NCBI RefSeq assembly: GCF_000092825.1 | Contig: NC_014168.1 | Location: 485,946 to 549,945, forward strand | DNA from: Segniliparus rotundus DSM 44985 | GTDB taxonomy: Bacteria > Actinomycetota > Actinomycetes > Mycobacteriales > Mycobacteriaceae | Direction of reading: 5' to 3' | Length of the DNA: 64,000 nucleotides | In this document: piece after piece, positions 18,001 to 24,000 of the stretch | Position numbering within the stretch: position 1 is the stretch's first letter | Layout of the letters: every line of letters starts with the position of its first letter | Program-made: the position numbers

Positions 18001-21000
18001 GCATCGCCCACTTGCGGCCTTCGCGCTTCATCTCGTGCAAATGGCTGATCCGCACGCGGGGCCGGGTTTGCGTCGCATAAGGAGCAGCAGAAACGGACAT
18101 GGTGGCGACCTCTCTTTGCCTCGAGGCCCGCTGGCGGGTCCCCGGGTTGGTTTCTTGTCCGAGCTCAGTCTAACGCCGAATGCCTGAGCCGGGCAACCGC
18201 CGGACTCCGCTTGAGCCACGACTCGATCACGAACGAGGACGGGCCGCGGGCAATTATCAGGAAGTCATGGCAGGATGGCTTGCTGTGAAAGAAGTGTTCT
18301 CTGTTGCGGCGTGGGGCGGCGCCTTTCTCGGCAAGTCCGGCCCCAGGCGCGCGCGGGCATTGGCGATTGTGTCGGCGACGGCCGCGGCCGCAGGTGTGGC
18401 GCTCGTCGCCTGCCCTCGGTCCGCCTCCGCGCCGGATATGCCCGAGGCGCTGAAGCCCTTTTACGACCAGCAGGTCGTCTGGGGCTCCTGCCAGGGCTAT
18501 GTCGCCGACTTCAAACCGAGCCCGAGGACCGAGTGCGCCATGGTCAAGGTGCCGGTGGACTACCAGAACCCGAAGGGCGAGAGCGCGCAGATCGCCGTGT
18601 ACCGGATCAAAGCCGCCGGCCAGAAGATCGGCTCTTTGCTCTTCAACCCCGGCGGTCCGGGCGGCTCCGGAGTCGGTTTCGTCTCAGGCTCCGCCTCGGC
18701 CCTGGTGAAACTGGACATCGCGCAGCGCTTCGACCTGGTCGGCTTCGACCCGAGGGGCATCGGCCACTCGACGCCCTCAGTGCACTGCTTGAGCGACAAA
18801 GAGCAAGACGCGTTGCGCGCGCTCAACGACAACGACTACACCCCTGCGGGCATCGCCCGCCAGGAAACCCGCAACAAGGATTACGCGCAGAAATGCGCCC
18901 AGCGCACGGGGGCGAATTTCCTCGCCCATGTGAACTCGATGGACGTCGCGCGGGACATGGACGTGCTGCGCCAGGCGCTCGGCGACGAGAAGCTGAATTA
19001 TGTCGGCTACTCCTACGGCACCAGGATCGGCACCGACTACGCCGAGCTTTTCCCCACGCATGTGCGGGCGATGGTCCTCGACGGCGCGCTCGACCCGAAT
19101 GAGAGCCCAGTGGACAAACTCGTCAACCAGGCGAAGGGCTTCGAGGACGCGTTCCGCATCTTCGCGGCAGACTGCGCCACCCAGGACCACTGCCCGCTGG
19201 GCAACGACCCCGCCCAGGCCGACGAGAAGTTCCGCGCCCTGGTCCTGCCGTTGATCGAGCATCCGGTCAACACGCGCGACGGACGTGGCCTCGGCTACTC
19301 GGACGCGGTCCTCGGCACCATCCAGGCGCTGTACTCCAAGCAGCTCTGGGTGGCGCTGCGGGAGGGGCTCACCGAGGTCAAGGCGGGTTCGGGCAATATT
19401 TTGCAGCTGCTGTCCGACCTGTACATGGACCGGGACTCGAAGTCCGGGCATTACAGCAACGAGCAAGACGCGAACATCGCTGTGCGATGCGTGGACGACG
19501 CTCCGACAACCGACCGTTCGGTCGTGGACCAGATGGACGTGCAGGGCCGCAAGGTCGCCCCGTTCGAGGACGACGAGCGCGGCACCGGGCACGGCGCGCT
19601 CGACCCGTGCGCGTTCTGGCCGGTCAAGCCCACCATCGCGCCGACGATTTCGAGCCCGCCCGTCGGATTGCCCAAGATTGTCGTGGTTTCCACCACGAAT
19701 GACCCGGCCACGCCGTACCAAGCGGGCGTGGAGCTGGCCAAACAGCTCGGAGCCTCCCTCATCACGTACAACGGCACGCAGCACACCGTCTCTCTGCAAG
19801 ACCAGAGCCAGTGCGTCGACAACGCGGTCCAGCAGTACTTGATCGACCTCAAGTCTCCCGCCGACGGTCTGACCTGCTGATCCGACGCCTTGTGGCGTCG
19901 GGCTGCTGAGACCGCGCCGCACGGCTCTTCCTTGCCCCTTTCGGGTGCAAGCTGCGCTTTCTCTGCGCTGGCGCGCGCAAGGGCGCAAAAGTTTGACAGA
20001 AAACTGGTGGATCGGTACTGTCCGATGACAGCAATATATGACATATATCCTACATAAAGGCAATATGTGGTAAGTGTTACATAATAAATCGCGCATCAAG
20101 CAATGGAGCTGGAAGGACCGCGCCGACATGACCAACCTTGCCGCGAGCATCGGAACCAAAGCGTTTTGCCGTTCTGTGGAAGACAGGGTCAGGCAGCAGG
20201 TGGACTCCCTGCCTCCTGCAATTCGGGGTCCTGCTTGCCACCACTTCGGCATACGCGAGGCGGGGGGAAAGAGCCCCGGTATGGGCAAGATCGCGCGGTC
20301 AAGGCTGTGCGCCGAGCTGGCCAGTATGGTCGACGGCCCCCATGTGACGATCCCAAGGGAGCGGGCGATCACCGCCGCCACGGCAATTGAGATGATCCAT
20401 AACTTCGGCCTGATCCATGACGACATCATGGATCAGGACGAGGAGCGCCGGGGCCGCAAAGCCGTGTGGGTGGCGTACGGAACGGGCATGGCCATTCTGC
20501 TCGGCGACATTTTGCTGGCCACCGCCGTGAAAATAGCGGCCAGTGTCGGAAACACGAGAATCGCCGATATCTTCAACCAAGCTATCGGCAAGCTCATCGA
20601 GGGGCAGCTGCTCGACATGGGCTCGAATATCGGGACCACGTTGGAAGAGCTCTGGGGCATCGCTGAGAAGAAGACCGCGTCCCTGTTCGAGTTGGCGGCA
20701 ATGTCGATCGCCGAGTTGGCCTGCGTGACGCAGAGGCAGGGCGAAGCGATGGAAAGTTTTTCTCGGCACTACGGCGTGGCGTTCCAGTACATGAACGACG
20801 CCGCCAGTTTCTTCGCGGGAAACAGCCACGACCCTCGGGCGCTCTCGGACATCAAGAACCGCAGGGCCACCCTCCCGGCTGTTCTGTTGGTCCAGAATGC
20901 ATTGCCAGGCTCGGATGCGCTGATCGCGCACTTCAGCGATGACCAGCCGCTCACCGGGGGAGCGGCGTATGAAATTATGCGCGCATTGAGAAGCGACGCT

Positions 21001-24000
21001 GTGCGGGATATGGCGCGCCAGGCTGTATTGCAAGAGTTGGAAATGGCGCAAAACGCTTTGAGCGCGGAATTCGAACCATGCTCGGTGCTCGCTCTTGCGT
21101 CAGAAATGTTGGACTCGAAAATCCTCGGCGGATTGATGTCTCCATGCTGAAAGAACGTGTCCGTCGTGAAATTTCGATAACCCTGCGGCTCAATATCAAC
21201 AACATCTGGGTGGCGATGTTCCCCGCAGTGGTGTTCGCGGCGGCGGGATGGGTCTCGAATGGCAGCTCCAGCGCGACAGAGGCCCTCAAATTTCTCGCAG
21301 CGCTGGTCTGGTCTTATTTTTTCAGCTATGTCTTCGATGCGGCGAACCAAGCTGTCGGGTGCGAGGAGGACGTCCTCAACAAGCCGCACCGGCCGATTCC
21401 GCACGGCCTCGTCGACTCGCGGGGCCTCTGGGCCCGTTATCGGTGGGCTTCGGCTCTTTTTGTCGCTGTTTCGCTGGTCGGCAATGCCACCACTCTGGCA
21501 GCGTCTTTGGGGTGGGTGCTTGTCACGTTGTTCGCGCACACCCAGCTCAAGCCTCGCCACTACTACCTGTGGAAACCTGTGACCACATGGCTCGGCGTGG
21601 TGGCCCAACTCGCTGGCGGCTGGTCTTTCATGGACGATTTGGCGAGCGAAAGCATCATGTGGATCGTTGTGGTCGCAACTATGTTCATCGTGGCTCAGCC
21701 TATAGAAGACGTGCGTGACATCGCAGGCGACACTCGCATGGGCAAGGTTTCGTTGGCGTACTTGTTCGGAGCGAAGAAAGTATGCGTGGCTTTCTGCCTG
21801 ATCATTGCGGCATGGCCGTTTTTGGCGTACGCGCTGTTCCTGCACTCCTCGACTCTGTCGCCTTGGGAATGGGGGGCTTTGCTTTTGCTCGGCGCGCTGT
21901 GCGGCATTGCTTTTCACCACGCCTACCAGTGGAATTCACTCCACCATCAAAGGCGTGCCTACATTGTGTACTGTTTCGCCTATATCGCGCTGACGTTGGT
22001 CCCTTTGAGCTGTCTTGTGTCTCGATGACGCGGCAATATTTCGAGTATGGAATCGGCCTTCACCAAGGAGGAATCGCGGTGGCTCATGGAGTTCGCTAGA
22101 GGGAATGTCGGCACTGTCGACCTGGTGGACGCGCAAGGCCGCTCAACAGGTGTGAGACCCGTGGCCGACGCGCACCGGGCGCCAGGCGTTCTGCACCGCG
22201 CCTTCAGCGTGCTGTTGCTCCGGGACGGCAACGAAATGCTTTTGCAGAGGCGTTCGGTCGCAAAAGAGCGGTGGCCTGGTTTTTGGTCGAATAGCTGTTG
22301 CGGGCATCCGCGTTCTGCAGACACCCTCGTCGACGACGCGAAGCGTCGTGTTTTCGAAGAGCTCGGCATTCGTGTGGACGCGCTCGAGCATGCCGGATCT
22401 TTCGTGTACCGAGCAACGCTGCGCGAGTGGACGGAACACGAGTACGACCATGTGCTGATCGGCAACATGGCCGGGGAGGACTCGCTCTTGCGGCCGGATC
22501 CGAAGGAAATCGGCGAGTTGCTGTGGCTTCCCGTGCAAGATTCCCTGGAGGCCCTGCGCCAGGTCACCCCCTGGCTCCCCCTGGTCCTGGAACAAGTCCG
22601 GGCTCGTCTTGCCTGAGCCGCCGCGCCGTGCGTGATCTTGGCCGGGGAAACCGCGCCCCCGTTGCGCGGTCGTCATGAAAAGGGCTTAAGCTGGGCGCAT
22701 GAACCGCCAAGAGGAGTTCGTGCTCCGCGCGCTCGAAGAACGGGACATCCGCTTCGTCCGCCTCTGGTTCACCGACGTGCTGGGTTACCTCAAGTCGGTG
22801 GCCATCGCCCCAGCGGAGTTGGAAGGAGCCTTCGCCGAGGGCATCGGCTTCGACGGTTCCTCCATCGAGGGCTTCTCCCGCGTGTACGAGGCGGACATGG
22901 TCGCCAAACCGGACCCGTCGACGTTCCAGGTCCTCCCGTGGACCACGAGCAGCGGCAAGCACCACTCCGCGCGGATGTTCTGCGACATCGCGATGCCGGA
23001 CGGCTCGTCCTCCTGGGCCGACTCCCGATATGTGCTGCGCCGCCAGCTCAATCGCGCCTTGGAACTCGGTTTCTCTTGTTACGTCCACCCGGAGATCGAG
23101 TTCTTCCTGCTCAAGGACTCGCCGTCGAAGCTCGCCCCGCCGGTGCCCGCCGACGACGGCGGGTACTTCGACCAGGCCGTGCACGATTCGGCCCCGGACT
23201 TCCGCCGCCATGTCGTCCACGCGCTGGAGTTCATGGGCATCTCGGTCGAGTTCAGCCACCACGAGAACGCGCCCGGCCAGCAAGAGATCGACTTGCGCTA
23301 CGCCGACGCCCTGTCCATGGCGGACAATGTCATGACGTTGCGCTACCTGGTCAAAGAGGTGGCGATCCAGGAGGGCGTGCGCGCCACGTTCATGCCCAAA
23401 CCGTTCACCCAGCACGCCGGTTCCGCCATGCACACGCACATGAGCCTCTTCGAGGGCGAGGCGAACGCCTTCCACAGCCCGGACGACCCGCTGCAGCTGT
23501 CGCCGATCGGCAAATCGTTCATCGCGGGCATCCTGGAGCACGCGAACGAGATCAGCGCCGTCACAAACCAATGGGTGAACTCGTACAAGCGACTCGTCCA
23601 AGGCGGCGAGGCCCCCACGGCGGCCTGCTGGGGCGCGTCAAACCGCTCCGCCCTCGTGCGGGTGCCGATGTACACGCCGAACAAAGCCTCCTCGCGCCGC
23701 ATCGAAGTGCGCAGCCCGGACTCCTCCTGCAACCCGTACTTGACGTTCGCGGTCCTGCTCGCCGCAGGTTTGCGCGGTGTGGAGAAAGGCTACGACCTGC
23801 CTGCCCAGGCCGAAGACGACGTGTGGTCCTTGTCCTCGGCGGAGCGCAAAGCGATGGGGTACCGCCCGTTGCCGGAAAGCCTGTCCGAGGCCCTCACCGC
23901 GATGGAAGGCTCCGAGCTGGTCGCGCAAGCCCTCGGCGAGCACGTCTTCGACTACTTCCTGCGCAACAAACGCCACGAATGGTCCGAGTACAGCCGTCAA

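What the first reader, a model, noticed from the sequence alone, without database searches (positions are those of the whole stretch)
20074..21150. Isoprenyl-diphosphate-synthase fold with second Asp-rich motif replaced by N-D-A-A-S
FARM (DDIMD...RRG), GQxxD and the FQ immediately before SARM are all intact, which makes misalignment unlikely. Yet the SARM reads FQYMNDAASFF, and the following conserved GDxxELGK/KATLP region is also remodelled (GNSHDPRAL...RRATLP). Loss of the first SARM Asp (D to N) is the hallmark of chrysanthemyl diphosphate synthase and other enzymes that catalyse non-head-to-tail couplings. The further loss of the third Asp (to S) is rarer still. In addition, the first 18 codons are AT-rich, so the true start may be the internal ATG at 20128.
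Basis: seen in the sequence. Interest (0 to 1): 0.65.

Follow-up and report, generated by a model that had tools for sequence, protein, structure and literature searches.

The report
Odd prenyl synthase in terpene cassette
A Segniliparus rotundus gene for a chain-building terpene enzyme has a real, conserved change in one of its two metal-binding motifs and sits in a small, probably acquired three-gene terpene cassette, but sequence alone cannot show that it does unusual chemistry.

Summary
The ORF at 20074-21150 is a trans-isoprenyl diphosphate synthase (IDS; PF00348, E 4.5e-45). Its first Asp-rich motif, DDIMD, is intact. The position of the second motif reads N-D-A-A-S. The true start is ATG 20128 (340 aa; WP_013137470.1, Segniliparus rotundus).

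The gene's stop overlaps by 7 nt the start of a UbiA-fold membrane protein. That protein carries the published UbiA-type terpene synthase motifs (NQxxGxxED and DxxDxxxD), not the prenyltransferase ones. A type-1 IPP isomerase follows.

The three genes form a 2.75-kb island of lower GC (59.5% vs 67.7%). It is absent from the same site in S. rugosus and present in two metagenome relatives.

Only the D-to-N change is a real departure. Gly, not Asp, is the normal fifth residue in this IDS clade (114 of 128 relatives).

The IDS is an orphan: three clusters among 5.8 billion, and 25-31% identity to all other relatives. It has diverged more than its partner, yet the remodelled motif is 91% invariant among orthologues. 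Residues expected to bind IPP are kept.

Most likely it is a working IDS, probably a C20 (GGPP) synthase, with an altered third Mg site, feeding the cyclase. Irregular coupling like chrysanthemyl diphosphate synthase is possible but unsupported. It shares only one of that enzyme's four active-site changes.

The parts
19879..22623 (.). Three-gene island: promoter, IDS, UbiA-type terpene synthase and Idi. It is absent from the syntenic site in Segniliparus rugosus.
   Evidence: Homology to S. rugosus (L049) ends at 19878 and resumes at 22624. GC is 0.595 against 0.677 in both flanks. The same cassette sits at the same locus in metagenome contig L001, and the same three genes are on L048.
19993..20021 (+). 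Candidate promoter: TTGACA, 17 nt, TACTGT.
   Evidence: The -35 hexamer and its surroundings are invariant in the three orthologous upstream regions. Coordinates were checked. The consensus scan did not call it, because the -10 matches only 3 of 6. It is inferred, not shown.
20111..20117 (+). Ribosome-binding site GGAAGGA, 10 nt before ATG 20128.
   Evidence: Invariant in the three orthologues. Coordinates.
20128..21150 (+). trans-Isoprenyl diphosphate synthase homologue, 340 aa (WP_013137470.1 / ADG97014.1). The listed ORF 20074-21150 is a 5' over-extension.
   Evidence: PF00348, E 4.5e-45. AF2 model pLDDT 82.7, and the 50 best Foldseek PDB matches are all trans-IDS entries, best 3nf2. Start codon.
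20419..20433 (+). First Asp-rich motif DDIMD (D116-D120 of the 358-aa ORF), intact, with Phe at -5.
   Evidence: DDIMD occurs in 121 of 128 relatives.
20794..20808 (+). Second Asp-rich motif position, reading N241-D-A-A-S245 (N223 and S227 in the 340-aa protein).
   Evidence: Aligned to DDLLG and DDLLD of solved IDSs. NDxxS occurs only in the Segniliparus clade (4 of 128).
20809..20877 (+). Remodelled lid region FFAGNSHDPRALSDIKNRRATLP. It replaces IWGDPxxTGKPxxxDLxxRKKSLP: GD becomes GN, the loop is shorter, and K becomes R.
   Evidence: The FQ-to-TLP block is 91% invariant among the three orthologues, against 73% overall.
21144..22028 (+). UbiA-fold integral membrane protein of the UbiA-type terpene synthase kind, 294 aa (ADG97015.1). 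Its start overlaps the IDS stop (ATGCTGA, 21144-21150).
   Evidence: PF01040. The exact protein is in the database. The same 7-nt overlap is seen in L001 and L048. AF2 model matches DGGGPS, ApUbiA and AfUbiA.
21345..21371 (+). UbiA motif I, NQAVGCEED (NQxxGxxED).
   Evidence: It aligns to NDIFDIEID of DGGGP synthase 6m31. N, Q, E and D are invariant in 5 homologues and Gly is kept in 4 of them (Asn in P0139). The NQ..G...D pattern occurs in 105 of the 153 best family members. It matches the published UbiA-type TS motif.
21708..21731 (+). UbiA motif II, DVRDIAGD (DxxDxxxD), preceded by Glu.
   Evidence: The family has QDxxDxxxD in 125 and EDxxDxxxD in 21 of 153 members.
22047..22616 (+). Type-1 isopentenyl-diphosphate delta-isomerase (ADG97016.1).
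   Evidence: NCBIfam equivalog NF002995, 148.9 bits against a cut-off of 127, and TIGR02150, 117 bits against 105.8.

Best explanation
The gene encodes an active trans-IDS-family enzyme. It is the first enzyme of a compact, probably horizontally acquired terpene cassette in Segniliparus rotundus: IDS, UbiA-type membrane terpene synthase, then IPP isomerase.

Proposed pathway:
1. Idi balances IPP and DMAPP.
2. The IDS ionises an allylic diphosphate at its intact DDIMD site and condenses it with IPP. The product is a short-chain prenyl diphosphate, most likely C20 GGPP, because Phe sits five residues before the first motif as in type-I GGPP synthases.
3. The translationally coupled UbiA-type synthase ionises that product in the membrane and cyclises it to a terpene hydrocarbon or alcohol.

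On the N-D-A-A-S substitution: it changes the ligands of the third Mg2+ (Mg-B) from a carboxylate to Asn (amide O) and Ser (OH). These are the two residues at the same helix positions in the (N,D)Dxx(S,T)xxxE motif of class I terpene synthases. Diphosphate ionisation can therefore be retained, perhaps with altered rate or substrate positioning.

Shown:
- fold and motif states
- operon structure
- presence and absence of the island
- conservation pattern

Inferred:
- catalytic competence
- chain length
- Mg ligation by Asn and Ser
- cyclase activity of the neighbour
For: Fold and family:
- PF00348 hit, and all 50 top Foldseek matches are trans-IDS entries.

Residues that bind the two diphosphates are kept and are invariant against canonical relatives:
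- G71-K72-x-x-R75, H109, R125-R126, K200-T201, F237-Q238, D242.
- The role of the GKxxR, RRG, KT and FQ positions in IPP binding is from PMC10108439.
- Lys of the TGKP loop is replaced conservatively by Arg.

The gene is under purifying selection:
- dN/dS is 0.33.
- It is intact in three lineages.
- The remodelled motif block is 91% invariant, against 73% overall.

The neighbour fits UbiA-type terpene synthases on both published motifs:
- It sits in a family of 102 representative clusters with E<1e-30 (1,728 with E<1e-3).
- The 153 best members mostly carry those motifs.

An IDS directly upstream of the UbiA-type gene recurs in other lineages:
- Rhodococcus (L009), Amycolatopsis (L010), Nonomuraea (L015) and a metagenome contig (L007).
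- In L009 a flavin monooxygenase follows.

The 7-nt stop/start overlap is conserved in all three orthologous cassettes.

The class I TS consensus (N,D)DXX(S,T)XXXE is quoted in PMC9835599.
Against: - From memory of site-directed mutagenesis on yeast, rat and Bacillus FPP synthases, not checked here: removing the first Asp of the second motif costs several orders of magnitude in kcat. A plain D-to-N change should cripple ordinary elongation unless it is compensated.
- The IDS partners of the closest UbiA-type relatives all keep DDLLG. The change is derived, not tolerated drift across the family.
- The Segniliparus IDS has diverged more than its partner: 25-31% identity against 33-42% for the UbiA-type protein. 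Canonical pairs show the reverse or parity. That fits a change of function or relaxed constraint.
- dN/dS of the cassette (0.33-0.40) is 2-5 times that of the flanking housekeeping genes.
- The Glu of the NSE triad is missing (Gly249).
- No biochemical or expression data exist. Searches pairing 'Segniliparus' with 'UbiA', and 'Segniliparus rotundus' with 'terpene', found no paper on this locus.
Confidence: 0.5

Rival explanations
1. Irregular (non-head-to-tail) coupling enzyme. As in chrysanthemyl diphosphate synthase, Asn at the first SARM position repositions the second substrate. Two allylic units (for example 2 x DMAPP, or DMAPP plus a longer allylic diphosphate) would be joined c1'-2-3 or 1'-2. 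The UbiA-type synthase would then ionise or cyclise the irregular diphosphate.
For: - The D-to-N change at exactly the CDS position.
- An Idi in the operon would raise DMAPP supply.
- The first SARM Asp also contacts the IPP tail, so it affects acceptor orientation (PMC10108439).
- Accelerated divergence of the IDS relative to its partner.
- Strong conservation of the new motif.
Against: - It shares only one of the four CDS active-site substitutions. KT and FQ are retained.
- It is unrelated to CDS by descent: type-I GGPPS-like, against a plant FPPS duplicate.
- Idi also accompanies a canonical IDS/UbiA-type operon in Nonomuraea, so Idi is not diagnostic.
- D-to-N arose independently in the NDVED clade, in a different context.
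- From memory, not checked here: all known bacterial irregular prenyl diphosphate synthases have the cis-IDS fold.
Confidence: 0.15
2. Condensing enzyme with a non-standard building block or acceptor. Either it elongates with modified C5/C6 units, as is suspected for the NDVED-type IDSs encoded next to IPP/DMAPP C-methyltransferases. Or, like ComQ, PalQ and Ord1, it keeps the first motif for the donor and uses the degenerate second motif to bind a non-IPP nucleophile.
For: - The only other relatives with Asn at this position (31-36% identity to the query by BLASTP) are encoded directly beside methyltransferase genes. The Micromonospora case matches the operon type of the characterised humMT.
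- trans-IDS-like Trp prenyltransferases show that 'FARM kept, SARM degenerate' can mean acceptor switching (PMC10853753 and PMC13290415).
Against: - There is no methyltransferase and no precursor peptide or other acceptor-forming gene in the 2.75-kb island.
- The basic residues that bind the IPP diphosphate are all kept.
- The Segniliparus clade is not nested in the NDVED clade: the NDVED-plus-DDLLG clade excluding it has bootstrap 100.
Confidence: 0.1
3. IDS-fold terpene synthase. The enzyme no longer condenses. It ionises a prenyl diphosphate made by housekeeping IDSs and releases a linear or cyclic terpene or alcohol. The half NSE-like motif (N-D-x-x-S) would mark a transition towards class I terpene synthase metal binding, as in insect and fungal IDS-like TPSs.
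For: - N, D and S match the first five positions of (N,D)Dxx(S,T)xxxE.
- IDS-derived terpene synthases are documented in insects and fungi (PMC10108439; PMC7484799, listed).
- Long branch and faster divergence.
Against: - According to PMC10108439, insect IDS-derived TPSs typically lose the IPP-binding basics, especially in the GKxxR motif. Here K72, R75, R125 and R126 are all kept.
- The Glu of the triad is absent.
- The operon already contains a dedicated terpene synthase. It would then lack a dedicated IDS, unlike the related operons.
Confidence: 0.08
4. Catalytically weakened or non-catalytic protein. It would be either a gene drifting under relaxed selection in an accessory island, or a scaffold/regulatory subunit for the membrane synthase.
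For: - Loss of a residue generally held to be essential.
- dN/dS is 2-5 times higher than in the flanking genes.
- The clade is tiny: 3 clusters in 5.8 billion.
- The island is absent from S. rugosus.
Against: - dN/dS of 0.33 is still clearly purifying.
- The reading frame, the start/stop overlap and all other catalytic residues are intact in three lineages diverged to dS of about 0.3.
- The altered motif is among the most conserved parts of the protein. Decay predicts the opposite.
Confidence: 0.1

Closest known systems
Type-I (archaeal/actinobacterial) geranylgeranyl diphosphate synthases, e.g. PDB 3nf2 (Streptomyces coelicolor polyprenyl synthetase) and 1wy0 (Pyrococcus GGPPS)
   Same: - Same fold and Pfam family.
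- DDIMD first motif with Phe at -5.
- GKxxR, RRG, KT and FQ residues.
- Best sequence and structure matches.
   Different: - Second motif is NDAAS instead of DDLLG.
- GD becomes GN.
- The TGKP loop is shortened, with K replaced by R.
- Only 25-31% identity to any relative, and no NCBIfam equivalog cut-off is reached.
Chrysanthemyl diphosphate synthase (plant, FPPS-derived irregular monoterpene synthase)
   Same: trans-IDS fold with Asp replaced by Asn at the first position of the second Asp-rich motif.
   Different: - CDS also has T to G (region IV), F to Y and a C-terminal R to G. None of these is present here.
- Different IDS subfamily and kingdom.
- CDS keeps NDxxD, whereas here the motif is NDxxS.
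NDVED-type actinobacterial IDSs encoded beside methyltransferase genes (Micromonospora, in the humMT-type operon; Nonomuraea L015)
   Same: - Nearest relatives that also carry Asn at the first SARM position.
- In Nonomuraea the gene lies in one operon with a UbiA-type synthase and Idi.
   Different: - They keep the IWGDP..TGKP lid and the fifth-position Asp.
- They are always next to a methyltransferase, which the Segniliparus island lacks.
- They form a separate, well-supported clade, so the D-to-N change is convergent.
- They are themselves uncharacterised.
Bacterial and fungal UbiA-type terpene synthase clusters (EriG, Fma-TC, StlTC of S. lydicus, PtmT1)
   Same: - The neighbour carries the diagnostic NQxxG/AxxED and DxxDxxxD motifs and the UbiA fold.
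- In the related bacterial loci examined here an IDS gene lies directly upstream.
   Different: - The partner IDS in the related loci examined has a canonical second motif.
- The Segniliparus protein has Glu instead of Gln before motif II, a minority state (21 of 153).
- Direct homology to a characterised member was not tested.
Class I terpene synthase NSE/DTE metal-binding motif
   Same: N-D-x-x-S occupies the equivalent helix of the shared alpha fold and matches the first five consensus positions.
   Different: - The terminal Glu is missing (Gly249).
- The overall sequence and the best structural matches are IDS, not terpene synthase.
trans-IDS-like tryptophan prenyltransferases (ComQ, PalQ, Ord1)
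   Same: IDS fold with the first motif retained and a degenerate second motif.
   Different: - Those enzymes act on peptides or tryptophan and are encoded with their substrates.
- Here IPP-binding residues are retained and no acceptor gene is present.

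Membership tests
trans-Isoprenyl diphosphate synthase (PF00348) | Significant match to the family profile and the all-alpha IDS fold | tested here: met
   PF00348, E 4.5e-45, 154 bits against a cut-off of 27. AF2 pLDDT 82.7. Top 50 PDB Foldseek matches are all trans-IDS entries.
trans-Isoprenyl diphosphate synthase (PF00348) | First Asp-rich motif DDxxD | tested here: met
   DDIMD at 20419-20433.
trans-Isoprenyl diphosphate synthase (PF00348) | Second Asp-rich motif DDxx(D/G), with Asp at position 1 ligating Mg | tested here: not met
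   NDAAS. The alignment register is fixed by FQ and by solved structures. 119 of 128 relatives have Asp at position 1.
trans-Isoprenyl diphosphate synthase (PF00348) | Basic residues that bind the IPP and allylic diphosphates (GKxxR, His, RRG, KT, loop Lys) | tested here: met
   K72, R75, H109, R125, R126, K200 and T201 are present. The loop Lys is replaced by Arg255. Roles are from PMC10108439.
trans-Isoprenyl diphosphate synthase (PF00348) | IPP-dependent head-to-tail chain elongation | not testable with these tools
   Needs an enzyme assay.
Named IDS equivalogs (IdsB GGPPS, CrtE, FPPS, encapsulin cargo polyprenyl transferase and others) | Score above the curated NCBIfam cut-off | tested here: not met
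   The best hit is NF041169, 184.9 bits against a cut-off of 450. All 16 hits are far below their cut-offs.
Chrysanthemyl diphosphate synthase-type irregular IDS | D to N at the first Asp of region V | tested here: met
   N241.
Chrysanthemyl diphosphate synthase-type irregular IDS | The other CDS-specific active-site substitutions (KT to KG, FQ to YQ, C-terminal R to G) and descent from FPPS | tested here: not met
   KT and FQ are retained. The nearest relatives are type-I GGPPS-like, not FPPS.
Chrysanthemyl diphosphate synthase-type irregular IDS | Formation of c1'-2-3 or 1'-2 linked products | not testable with these tools
   Needs an enzyme assay.
Class I terpene synthase | Complete (N,D)Dxx(S,T)xxxE triad opposite a DDxxD motif | tested here: not met
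   N241, D242 and S245 are present, but position i+8 is Gly249. The consensus is from PMC9835599.
Class I terpene synthase | Closest structures are terpene synthases | tested here: not met
   No terpene cyclase is among the 50 best PDB matches. Ranks 43 and 46 are variediene synthase entries (9e2h, its prenyltransferase core, and 9e2l).
UbiA-type (intramembrane) terpene synthase - neighbour gene 21144-22028 | UbiA fold / PF01040 | tested here: met
   PF01040, E 3.4e-18. The model matches DGGGPS, ApUbiA and AfUbiA.
UbiA-type (intramembrane) terpene synthase - neighbour gene 21144-22028 | Motif I NQxxG/AxxED in place of NDxxDxxxD | tested here: met
   NQAVGCEED aligns to NDIFDIEID of 6m31. The family-wide count is 105 of 153.
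UbiA-type (intramembrane) terpene synthase - neighbour gene 21144-22028 | Motif II (Q)DxxDxxxD | tested here: met
   E-DVRDIAGD. The DxxDxxxD part is intact. Glu replaces Gln, as in 21 of 153 family members.
UbiA-type (intramembrane) terpene synthase - neighbour gene 21144-22028 | Demonstrable homology to a characterised member (EriG, Fma-TC, StlTC, PtmT1), and cyclase rather than transferase activity | not tested
   No reference sequences were available. The AlphaFold DB libraries were not installed and the paper supplements are not held. Activity needs an assay.
trans-IDS-like peptide/tryptophan prenyltransferases (ComQ/PalQ) | Encoded next to a precursor peptide or other acceptor, with loss of IPP binding | tested here: not met
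   The island holds only IDS, the UbiA-type gene and Idi. IPP-binding basics are retained.
Type-1 IPP isomerase - gene 22047-22616 | Score above equivalog cut-off | tested here: met
   NF002995, 148.9 bits against 127. TIGR02150, 117 bits against 105.8.

The most novel reading that the evidence does not exclude
The Segniliparus enzyme is a bacterial trans-IDS-fold protein that has exchanged its second Asp-rich motif for the first half of the terpene synthase NSE motif. It performs chemistry other than regular head-to-tail elongation: non-head-to-tail coupling, or ionisation without condensation. Together with its translationally coupled UbiA-type cyclase, it would make a structurally irregular terpenoid in a Mycobacteriales opportunistic pathogen. 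As far as I know, that would be the first bacterial trans-IDS with irregular coupling, and a living intermediate between IDS and class I terpene synthase metal sites.
Probability: 0.17. Interest if true: 0.8.

Novelty: new variant of a known kind. Interest (0 to 1): 0.5.

Why it matters
If the enzyme is simply a GGPP synthase that works with Asn/Ser at the Mg-B site, the supposedly essential first Asp of the second motif can be replaced by terpene synthase-type ligands. That bears on how class I terpene synthases arose from IDSs.

If it does irregular or non-condensing chemistry, it opens a new bacterial route to unusual terpene skeletons.

Either way, the 2.75-kb cassette is a minimal, self-contained and untested terpene pathway in a genus related to mycobacteria. 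S. rugosus is a natural 'knock-out' for comparison. The neighbour adds to the still small set of bacterial UbiA-type terpene synthases. Public records name all sampled members of this family 'UbiA family prenyltransferase', '4-hydroxybenzoate polyprenyltransferase' or, for one fused protein, 'MFS transporter'.

Tried and rejected
- **A shifted Asp-rich motif.** Rejected. Alignments to 3nf2 and E. coli OPPS keep FQ and the following TLP in register, and no DDxxD lies nearby.
- **Sequencing error or private mutation.** Rejected.
- **Strict IPP-binding-motif regular expressions from PMC10108439.** They fail on canonical archaeal and actinobacterial controls as well, so they do not transfer to this subfamily. 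Only the key residues were used.
- **Placing the Segniliparus IDS in a tree.** The NJ tree leaves it unresolved on a long branch (bootstrap 42-55). I make no claim about its sister group. The first attempt timed out.
- **Riboswitch or known RNA in the conserved AT-rich leader.** No Rfam match at E<=1.
- **Flanking direct or inverted repeats marking a mobile element.** Only weak, chance-level matches.
- **A near-palindrome ATATATGaCATATAT at about 20036-20050.** It is only partly conserved in the orthologues, so it was not pursued.
- **Linking the UbiA-type neighbour to a characterised enzyme.**
  - The PDB holds no UbiA-type terpene synthase among the matches.
  - The AlphaFold DB libraries were unavailable.
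  - The supplements of two papers are not held.
  - The bacterial cyathane synthase paper PMC12981382 is not held.
- **Literature on the locus.** Searches pairing Segniliparus with UbiA or terpene found nothing on it.
- **Encapsulin-cargo polyprenyl transferase (best NCBIfam name).** Rejected: 185 bits against a cut-off of 450.

Full report
**1. The observation**

The ORF 20074..21150 (+) is present. It is a polyprenyl synthetase: PF00348, E 4.5e-45.

Direct translation gives these motifs:
- DDIMD at 20419-20433
- GKIAR
- EMIHNFGLIH
- RRG
- KKT
- FQYM-NDAAS, with NDAAS at 20794-20808
- FFAGNSHDPRALSDIKNRRATLP

HMMER alignments to solved structures put NDAAS on DDLLG of 3nf2 and on DDLLD of E. 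coli octaprenyl diphosphate synthase. FQ before and TLP after stay in register, so there is no displaced Asp-rich motif.

The protein is WP_013137470.1 / ADG97014.1 of Segniliparus rotundus DSM 44985.

The same sequence occurs on at least seven independent assemblies. Two orthologues at about 80% identity read NDAAS and NDASS.

- Both orthologues begin there, behind a conserved GGAAGGA.
- Upstream of it the three sequences differ by indels.
- NCBI annotates 340 aa.
- Residues 1-23 of the long ORF are disordered in the model.

**2. What surrounds it**

The IDS stop codon overlaps the start of the next gene: ATGCTGA at 21144-21150. That gene (21144-22028) is a 294-aa UbiA-fold membrane protein (PF01040).

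Next comes a type-1 IPP isomerase at 22047-22616. It scores above both NCBIfam equivalog cut-offs.

The three genes have 59.5% GC, against 67.7% on either side.

In Segniliparus rugosus the flanking TAP-like hydrolase and glnA2 genes are directly adjacent. Homology to the window stops at 19878 and resumes at 22624. The cassette is therefore a clean 2.75-kb insertion or deletion.

Metagenome contig L001 carries the same cassette at the same locus. The short contig L048 carries the same three genes. Both have the same 7-nt overlap.

A TTGACA / 17 nt / TACTGT promoter-like site is conserved upstream.

No flanking repeats mark a mobile element.

**3. The neighbour is a UbiA-type terpene synthase, not an ordinary prenyltransferase**

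Aligned to DGGGP synthase 6m31, the canonical NDIFDIEID corresponds to NQAVGCEED here. The second motif, DVRDIAGD, is intact.

Two papers give these as the signatures of UbiA-type terpene synthases such as Fma-TC, EriG and Tps1A, as opposed to NDxxDxxxD / DxxxD of prenyltransferases:
- Nxxx(G/A)xxxD with QDxxDxxxD (PMC9835599)
- NQxxG/AxxED with DxxDxxxD (PMC13483135)

An exhaustive profile search found 1,728 representative clusters at E<1e-3, of which 102 are below 1e-30. Among the 153 best:
- 105 have NQ..G...D.
- 125 have QD..D...D and 21 have ED..D...D.

Public records name these proteins generically. I could not test homology to a characterised member directly.

**4. Related loci**

A genome scan with the UbiA-type profile found relatives in Rhodococcus, Amycolatopsis, Streptomyces, Spirillospora, Nonomuraea and Bacillus-group genomes.

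An IDS lies immediately upstream of the UbiA-type gene in several of them:
- Rhodococcus L009, where a flavin monooxygenase follows
- Amycolatopsis L010
- metagenome contig L007
- Nonomuraea L015

The IDS/UbiA-type pair is therefore a recurrent module. In L007, L009 and L010 the IDS has the normal FQLVDDLLGIWGDP..TGKP..RKKSLP.

The Nonomuraea operon reads: IDS(NDVED), methyltransferase, IDS(DELLG), UbiA-type synthase, Idi.

In Micromonospora the order is aminotransferase, dehydrogenase, methyltransferase, IDS(NDVED). This matches the operon described for humMT, a characterised IPP/DMAPP C-methyltransferase (PMC9401056).

**5. How unusual the motif is**

Among 128 relatives:

| Motif | Count |
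|---|---|
| DDxxG | 114 |
| NDxxD | 5 |
| NDxxS | 4 |
| DDxxD | 4 |
| DExxG | 1 |

Gly, not Asp, is the usual fifth residue in this clade.

The real departures are three:
- D to N at position 1
- GD to GN
- a shortened TGKP loop, with K replaced by R

The Segniliparus proteins are an orphan lineage:
- Three clusters among 5.8 billion, with the next hit at 36%.
- A long, unplaced branch in a neighbour-joining tree.
- They lie outside the 100%-supported actinobacterial clade that contains both the NDVED proteins and the DDLLG partners.

Asn at this position therefore arose at least twice.

**6. Selection**

Between S. rotundus and L001:

| Gene | dN/dS |
|---|---|
| IDS | 0.33 |
| UbiA-type synthase | 0.33 |
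| Idi | 0.40 |
| four flanking housekeeping genes | 0.06-0.19 |

The cassette is under purifying but weaker constraint, as expected of accessory genes.

Within the IDS, the block from FQ to TLP is 91% invariant among the three orthologues, against 73% overall. The new motif is being maintained.

The Segniliparus IDS is only 25-31% identical to the IDS partners in L007, L009 and L010. Its UbiA-type neighbour is 33-42% identical to theirs. Among the canonical pairs the IDS is as conserved as the UbiA-type protein, or more so. The IDS has either evolved faster or been replaced.

**7. Fold**

The AF2 model (pLDDT 82.7) matches only trans-IDS entries in the top 50 PDB hits.

The UbiA-like model (pLDDT 77) matches DGGGPS, ApUbiA and AfUbiA.

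**8. Mechanism**

The residues that bind the two diphosphates are kept. Their roles are taken from PMC10108439.

That paper argues that loss of IPP binding is what turns an IDS into a terpene synthase. Here IPP binding looks preserved, so I favour a condensing enzyme.

Phe at -5 from the first motif points to a short-chain, probably C20, product. This rests on established chain-length rules for type-I GGPP synthases and is an inference.

Asn241 and Ser245 occupy positions i and i+4 of the helix that carries the (N,D)Dxx(S,T)xxxE motif in class I terpene synthases (consensus quoted). They could ligate Mg-B as Asn and Ser do there. The Glu is missing (Gly249).

The best reading is a working IDS with a terpene synthase-like third metal site, feeding the coupled membrane cyclase. 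Idi tunes the C5 pool.

Against this: from memory and not checked here, mutagenesis of FPP synthases found the first Asp of the second motif nearly essential. The change is also derived and accompanied by accelerated divergence.

**9. Rivals**

- **Irregular coupling as in chrysanthemyl diphosphate synthase.** It shares D to N but none of the other three CDS active-site changes.
- **Non-standard substrates or acceptors.** This draws on the NDVED relatives encoded beside methyltransferases and on ComQ/PalQ-type enzymes with a pseudo-SARM. The island has no methyltransferase or acceptor gene.
- **IDS-fold terpene synthase.** IPP-binding residues are retained, and a dedicated synthase is already present.
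- **Decay or a non-catalytic role.** The pattern of conservation argues against it.

**10. Verdict**

- The sequence observation is confirmed.
- The CDS-like interpretation is only partly supported.
- The thing is best described as a new variant of a known kind: an orphan trans-IDS with an N-D-x-x-S second motif, embedded in a minimal IDS / UbiA-type terpene synthase / Idi cassette that is present in S. rotundus and absent from S. rugosus.
- No paper on this locus was found.
- Function needs the assays listed under next steps.

Noticed in passing
L008:9106-11080 (Micromonospora palythoicola) and L015:2868-4841 (Nonomuraea sp.): A distinct clade of actinobacterial IDSs has NDVED at the second Asp-rich motif. 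In both loci examined the gene sits directly beside a SAM methyltransferase gene. The Micromonospora arrangement (aminotransferase, dehydrogenase, MT, IDS) matches the operon described for the IPP/DMAPP C-methyltransferase humMT (PMC9401056). These IDSs appear to be uncharacterised. They may be the enzymes that use methylated C5 units.
   Followed up: partly
L015:2868-7570, with flanks at 7480-8688 and 10459-11535: The Nonomuraea operon is IDS(NDVED), MT, IDS(DELLG), UbiA-type synthase, Idi. PMC9401056 describes an Amycolatopsis azurea MT operon as holding three further genes that putatively encode prenyltransferases, and says none of its four chosen operons encodes a terpene synthase. This operon has the same make-up, and its third 'prenyltransferase' is probably a UbiA-type terpene synthase. 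An integrase/DDE transposase ORF and a DDE transposase lie downstream.
   Followed up: partly
window 19879-22623 vs L049:7811-7924 (S. rugosus): There is a clean presence/absence polymorphism of the cassette between two Segniliparus species, between the TAP-like hydrolase and glnA2. No flanking repeats, tRNA gene or integrase were seen within the island.
   Followed up: yes
window 20022-20127: An AT-rich 5' leader of about 100 nt lies between the candidate promoter and the start codon. It has blocks conserved in all three orthologues (for example CACATAATAAAT.GCGCA) and a near-palindrome ATATATGaCATATAT in S. rotundus. There is no Rfam match. It could be an operator or a leader element.
   Followed up: partly
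L011:3987-4916 and 5803-6846 (Streptomyces sp. NPDC008001); protein P0192 (Ktedonobacterales, 762 aa): L011 has two UbiA-type synthase paralogues close together, with no IDS detected within 6 kb. P0192 is a member of the same family fused to a region annotated as an MFS transporter.
   Followed up: no
L009:4756-8507 (Rhodococcus sp. 14-2483-1-2): The nearest named-genome relative of the cassette is IDS(DDLLG), UbiA-type synthase, then an FMO-like flavin monooxygenase. This is a small, apparently undescribed terpene cluster in Rhodococcus.
   Followed up: partly
family of P0122: Of the ten family representatives sampled, all seven that carry a name are labelled 'UbiA family prenyltransferase', '4-hydroxybenzoate polyprenyltransferase' or, for the fused P0192, 'MFS transporter'. 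The family's best 153 members mostly carry the terpene synthase motifs (NQ..G...D in 105; QD/ED..D...D in 146), so this looks like a systematic annotation gap.
   Followed up: partly
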